Origin: Girardia tigrina
Lineage: Eukaryota
DNA length: 64,000 nucleotides
NCBI GenBank assembly: GCA_001938485.1
Contig: MQRK01220918.1
Span: forward strand, 1-64,000
Direction: 5' to 3'
In this document: positions 33,601-45,800 of the stretch, one piece after another
Numbering within the stretch: the stretch's first letter is position 1
How the letters are laid out: each line of letters opens with the position of its first letter
Program-made: the position numbers

Positions 33601-36600
33601 ATTTGCAATCACTTGACGTCCTTACGCGAAGATTATTCTCACTATTTTCCAGAAATTTTAATTGAATGCTATGATTGGATACCCAATTCTTTTGTGGAAT
33701 TTACTCATGATTTAAATCTTTCAGAAGAAGAGGAATTATTATGTATTCGTTATGATCGTTCACTGCGACTGAAATATTCCGAAATTTCTACTGATTCGTT
33801 TTGGGTAGAAATTCGAAAAAAATATTTAAATATAAAGGAATGAACTTACAAAATTCTATTACAATTTTCTACTTCGTATTTATGTGAAGCAGGATTTTCT
33901 GTTCTCATAAACATCGAACAAAAAAACGAGCAAGACTCAATTCTGTTGAAAATTAATTGAGAGTATGTCTCTCAAATATTCGACCTGACATTGCCACATT
34001 AGTTGCAAATCACCAAGGTCAAGTGTCTCATTAGTAATTTTTATAATAATAAAATAAAATTATCTTGTTAATGTTCATTAGAAATAAATATATGTATGGA
34101 CATCAAATAAGAAAACAAGCACTAGCAAAGGTTATGATTGAGAGAATAGTGGAAGGAGAAAGACCTAGAGGAAGACCAAAGAGGCAATGTATAGACGATT
34201 TAAAAGAATGCAGTGAATTGAGTATGAAATGTTTGAGAAAAGAAGCTACAAATAGAGAGATGTGGTGAAGGCTTGTTTATAATTAGGTGCACCCACGACC
34301 AAACGGCTAAGGTCAAAAAGAAGAAAGAAGATATGTACTTGTATGTGATTCTGATGTATATGTATGTATGCAATAAAAACATTGTTTGTGATTAATATGT
34401 TCGTTTCTAATAAAAACAATCGCCATTTTTTTGGGGGGTGAGTAGGTTGGTGCAGCGAAATTTTAAAATTGCACATTGGGGTCAGGTCACCTGAAAAAGG
34501 TTGGGAAACACAGAGCTAGAGCCTAATATAATTAACTGAAAGGTGATTTTTGACCTGTATTATTATTAAAAAAATAATAAAAATATATTTATGGAACAAA
34601 AAATAAAACTGCTAATTTTCTCAACCAAAAATTGTTTAAAAAAACCGGATAAATACGTACCAACATAACATATTATAATTGTTATACGATTAAAATATCA
34701 ATTTGAATATAATATCATATATTCACACAAACACACACAGTTATTAAATACCTTGCAAAAATAATTGACGAACTGAAATTTACATGAATGCAAATTTTAA
34801 AAATATTTAAGAATAAAATATTAAAATTTTAACCCCTTCATTTCCCCATGGAGTCACCAAATATATATTGACGCCAATTATACCATCTCCACCAAAAGTA
34901 TTAATAAAAATCCTTTTTTTGAGAAAAACACCAATACGACTCTGGATAGTCAATAAATATACAAAATACATTCTCATTGGTTTTGGAATACTTCTGCAAT
35001 TATTGAAGTATTAAACTTTGATTCACTGATGGACATGTATTTTTTGTTTACACTTCAGTATGGGAAAAGCGAAGAATTATAAGAAATTCTTGTAAAGGGT
35101 TTTGTGCTATGTTAAATTGCTGCTAACGTGTATCACCCTCACAACTTCATCAGTCGTCAAAAGTTGCAGACAGTCACTAGATTATATGAAATATATTTGT
35201 TAAAAAGATAATTTGGTAAATGTTCAATATCGGAGCCTCATTCGCTTCTTGTTTTTGTAAAGATAAAGCTACGAAGAGATATTCGGCGATATGAGTTCTA
35301 TTCGGGGTAAAGAAACTCCATCAAAGGCTACTATCAACCGAAGGTTTGAAAATTTTTGAGATAGACGAACATACTTTTTGATTAAGAAAAATTAGACAGG
35401 CTAATTGAAATGGGTAATAAAATATCAGAGGAATTCATACAAATTGTACAAAGTGAACGACGAATTACTCCCAAAGAAATAATTGTGTTGAAATGTTAGT
35501 GTAGTTACCAAAAATTAAATCATATTAATATTTAAAACTATATTTATACATCAAAATCGAATATTACTTATAAAAAAGAAACTAAAATGTAATAAAAACA
35601 ATTTGTTTTACTGGACCATTGTTAGAAAAATATAACACTCAAAATAGAATTTTCCTTGTTTTGATTGTTATTGTGCTGTGAATCAATGAGCCGTACAACA
35701 CGGAGAATTCGCGCAAGATGAGCGCCGCTCAGCGAGTCGTCGAGCACCATCAACCCCGATCGACAGAGGTATTGGTCACCTCAATAAAGACCGAGCCCAC
35801 GGAGGCATGTCACCGTTATATGTCCCATTTTTAAATACCATGCCTGCTTTCCGCCATTATTTACATACGCGGGTACACTTCAGTTAGCAAAAGTACTCTA
35901 CAGTCATTATTTGCTGCTACTGGAATTATAAATTGATTTTCCCGCTTTGTCCTGCGACTTACAACAGAACATAAGTGGTGACGTAAAATTTCCGTAGATT
36001 ACATACTAAATATCAAATAATGAAATCCAGAATGCATGTATTTCTGTCATCTATTTCTGACACATTTCATAGAGTTTATGGGAACAAGCTACTTTTCCAA
36101 GTATCCTCTATCATTCTCAACACATACATTCCACCGTCTGACTAGGTCGGAGAAGGCATTTGTATACTAATCGGCGGGCCTTTTGCTAATAAGGTAATCG
36201 CTTGCATAACTTCATCTCTGTCTGAAAATCATTTACCTTTTAGATGCTTTCTCAGGTGGTGGAACCGGAAGAAATCACTTTGAATAAGATTTTGGGTGTA
36301 CAACAGATAAGAAAGCTCCGCAAATTTACTTCGCTAAGCAGCAGCATGGGAATAGTGGTTCCATGACATCTCAACATATGCTATTTTATCATATGAAATG
36401 TCGGTATGATGACTTGGATCTGATGAAATGTCATATGATGAAATGTCATGTGTTGAGGTGTCTAGACACCCTTAAATATATAGAAAACTCAACTTAAATA
36501 TATATATTTATTCAATCTATCAAAAAAATATTGGACAAACATCTCAAGTATTCTAACATCGTACGGTTATATTATATCTGAACAATTCTCAAAATTCTTT

Positions 36601-42876: not shown

Positions 42877-45800
42877 NNNNNNNNNNNNNNNNNNNNNNNN
42901 NNNNNNNNNNNNNNNNNNNNNNNNNNATATATATATATATATATATTTAGAGAAAAATTTAGAATTTATTCAATAAGTTTTAACCTTTTTTTATGATTTA
43001 TCAAATTTCAAAACAAAATGTCAGATAATGATAAAAACTGAAATTTTTATACACACAAATGTTTATAATTAATTCATTCATTAATTTGAATCTTCCATTT
43101 CTCCCCCGCACGAAGCAATTAATTATCATAATTGTCCTGACTCTGTTGACCTGCTATCCTGGAAATCTCCTCATCTCGTTCGTTAAACTCTTTTTCATGA
43201 ACATTGTCGTTGTTTCGCGACGAGTTTTAATTTAAATAAAAAAAATACAAATAAATCGAATCCGAAATGAAGTCGACATTCGATGGAATTATATCGACCA
43301 ATTAAACCGAATCTATGAATCAATCAATAACTAAGTCCCAAGAAGATATTAGTTCTTTGGAAAAAATTAATTCTAATTTGGATCATGGGTTTTGAATAAA
43401 TAAATCAAATATTCCTCTTTTTGTCAGCACAATAAATGAAATTCTCTCAAATAATTCCGAAACGGAATTCATTTCAAAATTAAAAGATAAAATGAAAAAT
43501 TTTTCTCAATTAGTTTTATGTGATTGGGAAAAAAACTCTAATTTATTATTATTGTTAATTTTCGATATGATTTATGAAAGTCAAATTGTTTTAAATATTT
43601 TATTTGAATTTTGATCGAAATCAGAAATTTTTGTAATTTGTTTTTATTGATCATTGAAATTATTATAATTGGCGCAAAAAATAATTGTTTATGACGTTTG
43701 GATAAAAATAAATCATTTTCAATCGCAAATTCGTTTTCTTGTTCGATTTTCAATTTATCCGGTGTGATTTTTTTATCATTTATTTCGATTTGTGATGGAA
43801 ACCAAAGTCGATCGATTTTTGGACGAGAATTTCCAGGCGAATAACGCCTATCAACCAACGATCGGGGCGACTTATGGCGCGCGCCAGTTGAAGAACAGCG
43901 ATAATATTCCGATTATAATGGGCGTTTTGGACACGTCAGGGAGCGAGCGATATCAGTCAATGACTCGAATGTATTATCGCGGCGCTAAGGCGGCGATTTT
44001 GTGTTTCGACTTAACAGAATCGATCAGTTTTAATAAAATCAATTATTGGTATCGTGAGNNNNNNNNNNNNNNNNNNNNNNNNNNNNNNNACAAAGAAATC
44101 AAAAAGTCTCAGAACTCTAAACTAAAGAAATGTTGCGACAACGTATTGGCGCAATTGAAAGAGAAAATTACCGACACAAACGGCCAATCAGTCGTCGTCT
44201 TACCGTCGATCAAATCCGATGTCAACACTCTCATGAACGATCCGCGCTTCTTTCGGTCATTCGAAATGGCGTTCTCGTGTAAGTCTCAGATCATCAAAGC
44301 CATTCTCACGATCTTCATCAACCCGAGTCTCGAGGTTAAAATTTTAAATGTGACCCCCCGACCGGATGCTCGCTCCCCGTCGCCGGCGTGCCGCAGCCAC
44401 AAAATCGCTGCGCCCGCTCTTGCACCATCAGTCGTTCTGATGATCAATTTTACACATTTACTGAATTGCTCGTCTTTTCAGTATCCCAACAATTTCGATA
44501 AATACCTCTATACATCTGTTATCAGGTCCCAGAATCCTCCTCTTTACTACTGCCACAGGCCATCTTTTATTATTATCACCCGATTCTAAAAACCATACCA
44601 AATCTCCCTCTTTCAGATCACGGTTTTCTTTTAACCATTTACTTCTGTTCCTCCATTCGATGATTAATTCCCTTTTCTATCTGTTCCAAAATTGAATAGT
44701 TAGATTCAACACGTGCCTCCATCTGGAGTTTACATTTCCTTTTTCTGATCCTGTCATCATAGAATTACATCCTCCTTGATAACCAGCAATGATAAAATGA
44801 TTTGGCGTAAGTATCGGATTGTCTCTAGGATCTTCCATGGATCTCGTCAACGGTCTAGAATTAACGATCCCCTCTATTTCTTTTAAGATTGTTTCCAATT
44901 CCTCATCAGTAACTTCAGCCGTACCGCGTATGGTGTATAGCGCGTTTTTGATTGTTTTCACCATAGACTCAAAAATTCCTCCAAAATGAGGCGCCCTCGG
45001 AGGATTAAAGATCCATCTAATTTCCCCATCATTTACTACCTTTCAGGCCTTGTATCTTGTTTAATCTCTATAATTTCGCCATTTATCCCTCGATAGTTTC
45101 CTCTGTTATCCAAAATTATCATCGATGGTCTTCCTCTTCTGGCAATAAATCTTTTAACGCTCTTATAAGATCATCAGTATCCGGCTTTTTTGTTATCTCC
45201 AAATGTACCGCTCTACATTAAAGGTAAATAATTAAACAAATATATCTGTTCTTCGCTCTTCTCTGTCCATGTTTCGTAAGGATCGGATCAGCGACATCAA
45301 TTCCGATTTTATCGAACGCTTTTAACGGTTCTCGAAGACGGAACTCTGGCATTTCTCCCATTTGTTGGGAGATTCCTTTCGCATTTCTTCTTGAACAAAC
45401 TTCACAATTTCTTTGATAAAGTTTTATAGTTTTTCGCATTTTTGGGAACCAAAATCTTTCGGATAATTTACAATACTGTTGATTAACGCCAGCACTGAAG
45501 ATATTCTTGATGAACATGTCCCACTATCAATTTTGTTATTGGACTTTTATTAGATAGTATTATCGGATATCGTAAATTCCAAGGAAGGTACTCAGATTTC
45601 ACTATCCTGCTGTTGATTCTCAACAGTCCGTCTTCTACAATCATATGATTTGCTTTTAATATTGAGTCCTTTACTTTAAGTGTTTTTCCTGCCTTAATTA
45701 TTTGTATCTGCTATTTAAACCATTCCTGTTGATCTTCCTTTATTATTTCTTTTTCTGCTAATTCAAAGTTGAAAAAACTAATTTGTATTTGGAAGGAATT

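What the first reader, a model, noticed from the sequence alone, without database searches (positions are those of the whole stretch)
36590..44427. Mosaics of captured host-gene 5' ends inside an intron
Seen: short pieces of unrelated genes are joined in mixed orientation. Block 1 (36590-37442): orphan exon, an LRR-like stretch (IAKT*KQNQSFTSPDM), eIF4A-family Q motif. Block 2 (41231-42135): Rab24 start plus upstream flank, and another ATG-led ORF. Block 3 (42700-44427): Rab24 and the ARFGEF/BIG N-terminus. Every identifiable piece is N-terminal and CpG/TCGA-rich, like MCCC2's own exons 1-2. Established: Pack-MULEs and Helitrons capture gene fragments, and Pack-MULEs favour GC-rich 5' regions. 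Inference: a gene-start-capturing mobile system, with no Helitron or MULE ends evident.
[Added by the scan's program, not by the reader: the finding's places include an assembly gap (unread letters, written N; its length is only estimated) at 42877 to 42926, 44059 to 44089. Whether the letters on both sides are continuous or in frame is not known: test that first.]
Basis: partly seen in the sequence, partly recalled or inferred. Interest (0 to 1): 0.75.

Follow-up and report, generated by a model that had tools for sequence, protein, structure and literature searches.

The report
Gene-start fragments in a transposon wreck
Short, broken copies of the front parts of three ordinary cell genes lie inside and beside a decayed retrovirus-like transposon in an intron, which fits known kinds of DNA patchwork better than a proven new gene-capturing element.

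Summary
Partly confirmed. The stretch lies in a ~15.3 kb intron of MCCC2 (minus strand) in an AT-rich invertebrate genome. Three host-type genes are recognisable, all from N-terminal regions. They are Rab24-like (two copies, an inverted repeat 91% identical), BIG/ARFGEF (residues ~23-92) and eIF4A (residues ~32-66). The 'orphan exon', the 'LRR-like' stretch and the other ORFs are not supported.

Blocks 2 and 3 lie inside an old, broken LTR retroelement (37806-46001). There they stand in place of parts of pol, next to an inverted integrase remnant of a second retroelement. Block 1 lies 364 nt to its left.

New: blocks 1 and 3 end in the same 22-nt motif, unexplained. The eIF4A and BIG pieces are each followed by GT plus AT-rich sequence, like local 5' splice sites. 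No TIRs, target duplications or Helitron ends were found.

The Rab24-BIG junction falls in an assembly gap and is unproven. Parent loci and other genomic copies could not be reached.

Best reading (0.35): DNA-level patching of gene 5' regions into a transposon nest during break repair. Rivals are reverse-transcriptase-mediated capture, a dedicated capturing element and misassembly. Interest is moderate.

The parts
37230..37354 (+). eIF4A-like fragment (equivalent to residues ~32-66 of eIF4A-I/II; one frameshift) in block 1, running up to a GT
   Evidence: PDB searches: all hits are eIF4A.
37355..37442 (+). Tail of block 1: GGTGAG plus AT-rich ~14 nt, then a C-rich ~70 nt stretch ending in the 22-nt motif (37421-37442)
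   Evidence: No tRNA, Rfam family or significant fold.
36590..37229 (.). Rest of block 1: AT-rich sequence with short ORFs ('orphan exon', 'LRR-like'), not recognisable as any gene
37806..38048 (+). Left copy of a 245-bp direct repeat, the candidate 5' LTR. It ends ...TTACA and is followed 2 nt later by TGGCGACGAGGA, which looks like a primer-binding site
   Evidence: 92% identity to 45765-46001. The PBS reading comes from the sequence and is an inference.
38192..39894 (+). pogo/Tc5-like DNA transposon with 11-nt terminal inverted repeats and flanking TA on both sides. The transposase is broken (2 frameshifts; 2 single N)
   Evidence: Pfam HTH_Tnp_Tc5 3.3e-9 and DDE_1 6.7e-41. Ends read.
39946..42705 (+). 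gag-pol remnant of a Ty3/gypsy-like LTR retroelement (gag, protease DSG motif, the end of RT, the first 84% of RNase H). It is broken by at least 2 frameshifts and 3 in-frame stops. The RT core is lost (block 2 stands in its place), and so is everything after RNase H
   Evidence: Pfam RVT_1 profile positions 164-205 only, and RT_RNaseH_2 positions 1-84 of 100. ORFs.
41236..42135 (-). Block 2, read on the minus strand: an unidentified 88-codon ATG-led ORF (42099-41836), AT-rich DNA, the Rab24-like upstream flank (~41412-41282) and Rab24 codons 1-16 (41281-41236)
42706..43662 (.). Left part of block 3: AT-rich DNA, a (TA)n microsatellite holding the gap 42877-42926, and unidentified short ORFs
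43663..44058 (+). Rab24-like 5' flank (~130 nt) and coding piece (residues 1-7 plus ~26-110; 18 codons absent; no stop). It ends at the gap 44059-44089
44092..44334 (+). BIG/ARFGEF N-terminal piece (equivalent to BIG1 residues ~23-92 and beyond), 81 codons without a stop, running up to a GT
   Evidence: No hit in the word-indexed search.
44335..44427 (+). Tail of block 3: GTTAAA plus AT-rich ~14 nt, then a GC-rich ~77 nt stretch ending in the 22-nt motif (44406-44427)
44461..45710 (-). Integrase-region remnant of a second, BEL/Pao-like retroelement, without LTRs. It is broken by at least 2 frameshifts and 1 stop, and the catalytic core is not detected by Pfam
   Evidence: Pfam Integrase_H2C2 5.9e-9 and DUF5641 7.6e-7. 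The link between DUF5641 and BEL/Pao is recalled.
45765..46001 (+). Right copy of the 245-bp direct repeat (candidate 3' LTR)
46316..46393 (-). MCCC2 exon bounding the intron on the upstream side
   Evidence: Pfam.
30886..31017 (-). MCCC2 exon bounding the intron on the downstream side
   Evidence: Pfam.

Best explanation
The finding is not one element. It is the interior and the left flank of an old, broken Ty3/gypsy-like LTR retrotransposon (37806-46001). This element lies in a 15.3 kb MCCC2 intron that is full of other transposon remains.

Short genomic (DNA-level) copies of the 5' regions of at least three cellular genes (Rab24-like, BIG/ARFGEF, eIF4A) have been patched in, together with a piece of a second retroelement. 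They are in mixed orientation and take the place of stretches of the host element.

The most likely mechanism is repair of chromosome breaks by copying short stretches from other loci. This is template-switching synthesis, often called 'filler DNA', and it goes with loss of recipient sequence at the break. The same Rab24 5' segment was used twice, in opposite orientations.

SHOWN: the identity and N-terminal position of the pieces, their orientations, the loss of the RT core and of the RNase H end and integrase where blocks 2 and 3 stand, the inverted repeat, and the GT plus AT-rich sequence after two of the pieces.

INFERRED: the break-repair mechanism itself, that the donors were genomic DNA, and that the 5' bias reflects accessible promoter-proximal DNA.
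For: 1. Blocks 2 and 3 replace retroelement sequence rather than interrupt it. Only RVT_1 profile positions 164-205 and RNase H positions 1-84 of 100 remain, and no plus-strand integrase is present.

2. Orientation is mixed. The Rab24 start in block 2 and the BEL/Pao-like integrase piece are antisense to the gypsy-like element, while Rab24 and BIG in block 3 are sense.

3. The eIF4A and BIG coding pieces are each followed at once by GTGAGA / GTTAAA plus ~14 AT-rich nt. Two of the three short MCCC2 introns printed begin the same way (GTAAAG..., GTTAAT...). This points to a retained exon-intron junction.

4. Both Rab24 copies carry ~118-130 nt of non-coding upstream flank. Beyond that they are unrelated (alignment score 29 against a shuffle mean of 30).

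5. No terminal inverted repeats, target-site duplications or Helitron ends bound any block.

6. The two Rab24 arms differ by 9.0% and the two LTR-like repeats by 8.2%. The patching is therefore old and of about the same age as the element.
Against: 1. The 22-nt motif shared by the ends of blocks 1 and 3 (20 of 22 identical; 0 of 100 shuffles give a match) is not explained by random patching.

2. A preference of break repair for gene 5' regions is not established for this organism. I did not read a paper that shows it: one search gave listings only, and the rest is recalled.

3. The uninterrupted coding runs (Rab24 252 nt, BIG 243 nt) are longer than any of the eight internal MCCC2 exons mapped (78-186 nt). 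That would suit spliced cDNA.

4. The donor loci could not be seen, because the species' own proteins are not in the database. Junction microhomology and donor structure are therefore untested.

5. Only three genes are involved.

6. The assignment of the GT after the eIF4A piece as the true exon end is uncertain, because homology to eIF4A stops ~15 nt earlier.
Confidence: 0.35

Rival explanations
1. Capture mediated by reverse transcriptase. Host transcripts were recombined into the retroelement (or into a retro-copied chimera) by template switching during reverse transcription. This is what happened in the maize Bs1 LTR element, which carries segments of three host genes, and in LINE-made bi- and tripartite chimeras. 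Copying runs to the 5' end of each template before the enzyme jumps, so 5' ends are favoured.
For: 1. Blocks 2 and 3 lie between the LTR-like repeats and replace pol sequence, as in transducing retroelements (review PMC13317346, passages read).

2. In blocks 1 and 3 the identified pieces are all sense to one another and to the tail.

3. The two Rab24 copies share the same upstream limit, as a transcript 5' end would give.

4. The coding runs are longer than the local exons.

5. Double template jumps are documented (PMC2104539, abstract read).
Against: 1. The block 2 pieces and the BEL/Pao-like piece are antisense to the gypsy-like element. Simple RNA-to-RNA switching keeps polarity.

2. The GT plus intron-like sequence after the eIF4A and BIG pieces argues against mature mRNA.

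3. There is no poly(A) tract and no target-site duplication.

4. Block 1 lies outside the LTR-bounded element.
Confidence: 0.25
2. A dedicated non-autonomous mobile element whose fixed terminus is the 22-nt motif. One form is a rolling-circle-like or one-ended element. Another is an intron-resident ('introner-like') repeat sitting ~16 nt behind 5' splice sites of early introns. Either would carry along the DNA on one side of it, namely the gene's first exons and promoter.
For: 1. The same 22-nt motif lies exactly where blocks 1 and 3 end, in the same orientation relative to the sense host exons.

2. Both tails have similar length (88 and 93 nt) and the same layout: GT, about 14 AT-rich nt, a 70-77 nt GC-rich stretch, the motif, then an AG within 4-8 nt.

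3. The cargo differs between the two copies, as it does in Pack-type and Helitron captures.
Against: 1. There are only two instances.

2. There is no second terminus, TIR or TSD.

3. The ends are ...CACCA rather than CTRR, and a palindrome is present in one copy only (criteria from PMC4067079).

4. The ~65 nt before the motif do not align between the copies.

5. Block 2 has no such end.

6. The AT-rich motif after the GT is no rarer than chance (1.59 expected, 2 found).

7. The motif core is in no searchable paper.
Confidence: 0.15
3. Assembly artefact. Contigs or scaffolds are chimeric, and the mosaics do not exist in the animal.
For: The assembly is a gapped draft with 13 N runs in 64 kb. 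The Rab24-BIG junction lies in a gap, and the 1.13 kb contig 42927-44058 is placed only by scaffolding.
Against: Five junctions lie inside ungapped sequence: gypsy|block 2, block 2|RT, RNase H|block 3, tail|integrase remnant, and integrase remnant|LTR. The surrounding anatomy is coherent: an LTR pair, a PBS-like site, and a pogo element with TA flanks. The fragments have decayed (a frameshift, an 18-codon loss, 9% divergence between the arms), as old real insertions do.
Confidence: 0.1
4. The tails are retroelement ends read on the minus strand. TGGTGC... would be the first bases of an LTR, or a primer-binding site shared by two related elements. The host pieces would merely abut truncated retroelement ends.
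For: On the minus strand the block 3 motif starts with TG, 30 nt after the stop of the BEL/Pao-like pol remnant. That is where a 3' LTR would begin. Short conserved ends with divergent neighbouring sequence are typical of LTR termini and primer-binding sites (recalled).
Against: In block 1 nothing retroelement-like lies upstream of the motif on the minus strand. The 30-nt spacer is not a clear polypurine tract. No tRNA matches, since there are no tRNA genes in the window and the tails are not tRNA-like. The supposed LTRs would stop after ~90 nt in both cases.
Confidence: 0.1

Closest known systems
Bs1 of maize: an LTR retroelement carrying transduced segments of three host genes (review PMC13317346, passages read)
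   Same: Several unrelated host gene fragments lie between LTRs, in place of the element's own coding sequence. None of them is full length.
   Different: Here some pieces are antisense. Two of them keep what looks like an exon-intron junction. One block lies outside the LTRs. A fragment of a second retroelement is part of the mosaic. Neither amplification nor expression is known.
Pack-MULEs / Pack-type TIR transposons (PMC5861414, passages read)
   Same: Mosaics of GC-rich gene fragments raise local GC content in a GC-poor setting.
   Different: No terminal inverted repeats and no 8-11 bp target-site duplication were found here. This is an animal genome.
Helitron / Helentron gene capture (PMC4067079, passages read)
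   Same: Gene fragments lie next to one conserved short terminus. There is no TSD. The cargo varies between copies.
   Different: The ends are not 5' TC / 3' CTRR. A 16-20 nt palindrome ~11 bp from the end is absent. The A|T insertion context holds in one of two copies. No Rep/helicase gene is in the window.
LINE-mediated bi- and tripartite chimeric retrocopies formed by template switching (PMC2104539, abstract read; bioRxiv 10.1101/2025.02.02.635956, search listing only)
   Same: Copies of different transcripts are fused head to tail in one orientation. Transcript 5' parts are favoured.
   Different: There are no flanking direct repeats, no poly(A) and no LINE part. The orientation is mixed in block 2. 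Intron-like sequence is retained.
Filler DNA / templated insertions at repaired double-strand breaks (recalled; one search gave listings only)
   Same: Short pieces from several loci, transposon pieces included, are joined in mixed orientation, with loss of recipient sequence.
   Different: No donor loci or junction microhomologies could be examined. The shared 22-nt end is not expected.

Membership tests
Pack-MULE / Pack-type TIR transposon | Terminal inverted repeats at both ends of the element | tested here: not met
   The repeat finder over the blocks shows no inverted repeat at block edges; the only long one is the Rab24 5' pair. Pairwise alignments of the edges give noise-level scores. 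The 22-nt motif has no inverted partner at up to 3 mismatches.
Pack-MULE / Pack-type TIR transposon | Target-site duplication (8-11 bp for MULEs, per PMC5861414) | tested here: not met
   The longest shared words between the sequence right of each tail and the upstream region are 8-10 nt of AT-rich sequence at unrelated places.
Pack-MULE / Pack-type TIR transposon | Internal fragments of host genes | tested here: met
Helitron | 5' TC and 3' CTRR termini | tested here: not met
   Both tails end ...GCACCA. On the other strand they begin TGGTGC. Criteria from PMC4067079.
Helitron | 16-20 nt palindrome ~11 bp from the 3' end | tested here: not met
   Block 3 has only a 5-bp stem (GCAGC/GCTGC) 17 nt from the end, and block 1 has none.
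Helitron | Insertion between A and T without TSD | tested here: inconclusive
   The junction is A|T in block 3 and A|A in block 1. No TSD was found.
LTR retroelement with transduced host segments (Bs1-like) | Pair of LTRs flanking the mosaic, with a primer-binding site | tested here: met
   The direct repeats 37806-38048 and 45765-46001 are 92% identical. TGGCGACGAGGA lies 2 nt after ...TTACA, which I read as a primer-binding site by inference. A target-site duplication could not be fixed.
LTR retroelement with transduced host segments (Bs1-like) | Host segments inside the element, sense to it and intron-free (cDNA origin) | tested here: inconclusive
   Blocks 2 and 3 are inside and block 1 is outside. 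The block 2 pieces are antisense. The coding runs are uninterrupted, but GT plus intron-like sequence follows two of the pieces. The parent loci were not available.
LINE-type chimeric retrocopy | Flanking direct repeats and a 3' poly(A) or LINE tail | tested here: not met
   No TSD. No A-tract after either tail. No non-LTR RT domain in the region.
Hairpin-RNA (inverted-repeat siRNA) locus | Long inverted repeat homologous to a gene, and small RNAs from it | not testable with these tools
   The repeat exists (144 nt arms, 91%, ~2.3 kb apart). No expression data were available.
tRNA / known structured RNA as the nature of the tails | Match to a tRNA model or an Rfam family | tested here: not met
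   ARAGORN found 0 genes at default settings, and only noise at relaxed mitochondrial settings. Rfam at E<=1 gave only AT-repeat microRNA look-alikes. Fold z-scores were -0.2 to -1.2.

The most novel reading that the evidence does not exclude
The 22-nt motif is the fixed terminus of an undescribed family of short elements (~90 nt) that sit just behind 5' splice sites of early introns. When copied elsewhere, they carry the upstream exon(s) and promoter with them. This would be a system that specifically duplicates gene starts. As a side effect it could build inverted repeats, such as the Rab24 5' pair, that might yield small RNAs against the parent gene.
Probability: 0.12. Interest if true: 0.75.

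Novelty: new member of a known kind. Interest (0 to 1): 0.38.

Why it matters
If the patchwork reading holds, this locus is one more example of gene fragments being scattered into transposon-rich introns. 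Its main use is as a warning for gene prediction, because a false 265-aa 'Rab24-BIG' ORF appears across a gap.

If the shared 22-nt end proves to be a repeated terminus next to many different gene starts, it would describe a way of duplicating promoters and first exons in an animal genome. That bears on how new chimeric genes, new promoters and gene-targeting small RNAs arise.

Tried and rejected
1. Parent loci and copy number. The word-indexed protein search gave at best 54% identity for the Rab piece. It gave 89% for an MCCC2 exon and nothing for the BIG piece. The species is therefore not in the database and the parents cannot be found. The open DNA collections hold no eukaryote.

2. Identity of the unidentified ORFs. 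Pfam, PDB, the ESM Atlas and the exhaustive representative search for the 88-aa ORF gave nothing usable.

3. Tails as a known RNA. Rfam, ARAGORN (also relaxed) and folding were all negative.

4. Further copies of the tails. blastn-short found only the 22-mer pair. CCCCCGC occurs just twice, the second time at 43103 in block 3, and 4 of 100 shuffles do as well. I treat this as chance.

5. GGTNANAATTTNAAAT as a second shared motif. Rejected: 2 found against 1.59 expected. It is the ordinary look of a local 5' splice site.

6. Extension of the Rab24 homology further upstream. None was found.

7. Distinct base composition as a sign of foreign origin. Rejected, because CpG excess is widespread in the window.

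8. The idea that the 54-nt loss in Rab24 or a possible ~55-residue skip in BIG are skipped exons. This is not testable, and the BIG skip rests on a non-significant alignment.

9. Literature search for the motif core: 0 papers.

Full report
SETTING. The window is AT-rich (29% GC) and comes from an invertebrate animal. I do not take it for human. The best match of a conserved MCCC2 exon is 89% to a nemertean, followed by crustaceans and molluscs, with no near-identical hit. The species' own proteins are therefore not in the searched set.

MCCC2 lies on the minus strand. tblastn of two named homologues maps exons at 46533-46438, 46393-46316, 31017-30886, 30838-30719, 30665-30486, 26597-26505, 24351-24166, 21177-21031 and 16921-16304 (Pfam Carboxyl_trans). 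The finding (36590-44427) thus lies in the 15.3 kb intron between 46316 and 31017. MCCC2 was handled exon by exon: one exon was searched.

GAPS FIRST. The window has 13 N runs. The gap 42877-42926 has (TA)n on both sides, like the other 50-N gaps, whose flanks match each other. It is most simply a break inside a microsatellite of unknown length.

The gap 44059-44089 separates the Rab24-like piece from the BIG-like piece. As written, 33 nt lie between the last Rab codon and the first BIG codon, so the ORF listing prints one 265-aa ORF. The gap length is only an estimate and the two sides are different genes, so neither adjacency nor frame can be claimed. The 1.13 kb contig 42927-44058 is held in place by scaffolding only. 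All other junctions discussed lie in ungapped sequence. No N was filled or looked up.

ANATOMY.
- A 245-bp direct repeat (37806-38048 and 45765-46001, 92% identical) brackets the region. The left copy ends ...TTACA and is followed 2 nt later by TGGCGACGAGGA. I read this as an LTR end plus a primer-binding site (sequence; inference). A target-site duplication could not be fixed.
- Next comes a pogo/Tc5-like DNA transposon at 38192-39894, with 11-nt inverted ends and TA on both sides. Pfam gives HTH_Tnp_Tc5 and DDE_1 6.7e-41. Its transposase has 2 frameshifts.
- Then come gag and protease of a Ty3/gypsy-like element, followed by block 2.
- After block 2 come the last part of RT (Pfam RVT_1 positions 164-205 only) and RNase H (RT_RNaseH_2 positions 1-84 of 100), followed by block 3.
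- On the opposite strand lies an integrase-region remnant with Integrase_H2C2 and DUF5641 (44461-45710). I recall DUF5641 as typical of BEL/Pao elements, so this is a second element.
- The right repeat closes the region.

The gag-pol remnant has at least 2 frameshifts and 3 in-frame stops. It has also lost the RT core and everything after RNase H. The integrase remnant has at least 2 frameshifts and 1 stop, and its catalytic core is not detectable. Block 1 lies 364 nt left of the left repeat, outside the element.

WHICH HOST PIECES ARE REAL.
- Rab24-like. Pfam Ras gives 7.9e-18, and PDB Rab proteins give E down to 7.6e-13. The best named hits are Rab-24 of molluscs at 52-54% identity (10 of 54 candidates passed). 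In the alignment the block 3 copy has residues 1-7 and then ~26-110 of ~203. The 18 codons of the P-loop are absent and no stop occurs. The block 2 copy (minus strand) has residues 1-16.
- BIG/ARFGEF. 44092-44334 matches human BIG1 residues 23-92 (E=1.2e-4). A possible internal skip rests on a non-significant stretch.
- eIF4A. Two frames match residues 33-48 (E=0.33, but all 4 hits are eIF4A) and 48-66 (E=5.8e-4). The piece has one frameshift.

No further part of these genes is in the window. All three identified genes are represented by N-terminal regions, and Rab24 comes with its start codon and upstream flank.

WHAT IS NOT SUPPORTED. The 'orphan exon', the 'LRR-like' stretch and the ORFs at 43268-43611 have no match in Pfam, PDB or the Atlas. 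They are also no longer than the open frames of shuffled sequence (349/500 and 144/500). The 88-codon ATG-led ORF of block 2 is marginal (13/500). It has no relative among 1.84 billion representatives.

The composition claim holds only in part. The Rab, BIG and eIF4A pieces have CpG o/e of 1.5-2.0, against 0-1.2 for the MCCC2 exons, including the first two seen. CpG excess is also common in the window's AT-rich non-coding DNA.

NEW OBSERVATIONS.
The two copies are 20/22 identical and lie on the same strand. None of 100 shuffles gives a match, and there is no other copy in the window. The ~65 nt before the motif are GC-rich in both but do not align.

(b) The eIF4A and BIG coding pieces are each followed by GTGAGA / GTTAAA plus ~14 AT-rich nt. 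Two of the three short MCCC2 introns printed begin the same way. The apparent shared motif there is no rarer than chance. I read it as a retained 5' splice site. An AG follows within 4-8 nt after the 22-mer, so each tail could also be read as a complete 95-100 nt intron with an unusually GC-rich core. The MCCC2 short introns are 44-53 nt long with 22-28% GC.

(c) The Rab24 5' segments of blocks 2 and 3 form an inverted repeat (144 nt, 91%). They share the same upstream limit, and beyond it there is no similarity.

(d) No TIR, TSD or second shared end bounds any block.

(e) The tails are not tRNA, match no Rfam family and are not significantly folded.

MECHANISM. Blocks 2 and 3 replace retroelement sequence. 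The pieces are in mixed orientation, and a fragment of another retroelement is part of the mosaic. Two pieces keep what looks like an exon-intron junction, and one keeps upstream flank. This fits copying of genomic DNA from other loci into breaks, with loss of recipient sequence (templated filler, template-switching repair), better than clean transposition. I give it 0.35.

Reverse-transcriptase-mediated capture (Bs1-like transduction or LINE-type template jumps; review PMC13317346, passages; PMC2104539, abstract) explains three things well. These are the 5' bias, the location between LTRs and the long uninterrupted coding runs (252 and 243 nt, against MCCC2 exons of 78-186 nt). It does not explain the antisense pieces or the intron-like sequence (0.25).

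A dedicated element with the 22-nt motif as its fixed end is the bold reading (0.15). It is the only one that explains the motif and the equal layout of the two tails. However, it rests on two instances and fails the Pack-MULE and Helitron criteria that I could test (criteria from PMC5861414, passages, and PMC4067079, passages).

The minus-strand reading of the motif as an LTR start or primer-binding site (0.1) is supported only in block 3, where it begins 30 nt after the pol remnant's stop. Misassembly of the whole is unlikely given the coherent nested anatomy (0.1), but it cannot be excluded for the Rab24-BIG adjacency.

AGE. The LTR-like repeats differ by 8.2% and the Rab24 arms by 9.0%. 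The events are old and of similar age.

WHAT STAYED UNCHECKED. This covers parent loci, genomic copy number of the junctions and of the motif, read support and expression. The open genome collection holds only bacteria and archaea and was not used. Supplementary files were not consulted, and the Pack-MULE flank and TSD figure cited in the passages is supplementary.

PAPERS AS SEEN.
- PMC5861414, PMC4067079 and PMC13317346: passages found by term.
- PMC2104539: abstract and outline.
- bioRxiv 10.1101/2025.02.02.635956, PMC2912911 and the break-repair papers: search listings only.
- Statements on filler DNA at breaks, on DUF5641 and BEL/Pao, on RT_RNaseH_2 and Ty3/gypsy, and on pogo TA duplications are recalled.
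- That the motif is not in print rests only (13-nt cores, both strands, 0 papers).

VERDICT. The best reading makes this a new instance of a known kind of gene-fragment patchwork in a transposon nest. One unexplained feature, the shared 22-nt end behind splice-site-like sequence, keeps a more novel reading alive.

Noticed in passing
window 3414-5336 and 11050-9039: Two copies of a ~1.9 kb element in inverted orientation (94-98.5% identical). Each holds an ORF with homeodomain-like / IS630-type transposase DNA-binding domains (3796-4731 minus, 9645-10664 plus). Between them lies an ORF with a GIY-YIG nuclease domain (5835-6362, E=1.3e-4), which may be a Penelope-like element remnant.
   Followed up: partly
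window 51259-51444 and 52815-52630: A perfect (100%) 186-nt inverted repeat with ~1.2 kb between the arms. This is either a young foldback or TIR element, or an assembly duplication.
   Followed up: no
window 18861-18919, 24043-24111, 24507-24546, 24597-24650, 42837-42876, 47662-47709, 47761-47808: The 50-N gaps are all flanked by near-identical (AT)n tracts that match each other. The assembler evidently breaks at AT microsatellites.
   Followed up: partly
window 14731-15186(-), 19992-20656(-), 25156-25599(-), 28380-28571(+), 58340-58960(+), 53435-53890(-): Further transposon remains in and around MCCC2: Tc1-like DDE_3 ORFs, mariner-like Transposase_1 / HTH_48 ORFs, and a gag-like ORF with two CCHC zinc knuckles. 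The gene's introns are a transposon graveyard.
   Followed up: partly
window 44-989 vs 12858-11900; 359-978 vs 13686-14311; 11843-12535 vs 14370-13687: An unclassified repeat family with 84-90% identical copies in both orientations.
   Followed up: no
window 10133-10287: Tandem array with a 12-nt period (self-matches shifted by multiples of 12) inside the right copy of the inverted element pair.
   Followed up: no
window 61601-62000 and many AT-rich stretches: CpG is over-represented in AT-rich non-coding DNA (median o/e 1.03, many 400-nt windows at 1.6 or above, 3.2 at 61601-62000). The MCCC2 exons are at 0-1.2. This pattern suggests that methylation, if present at all, is confined to gene bodies.
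   Followed up: partly
window 43792-44589: Reading N as X makes a false 265-aa 'Rab24-BIG' open frame across the 31-N gap. It then runs on into the antisense strand of the integrase remnant, which is a trap for automatic gene prediction.
   Followed up: yes
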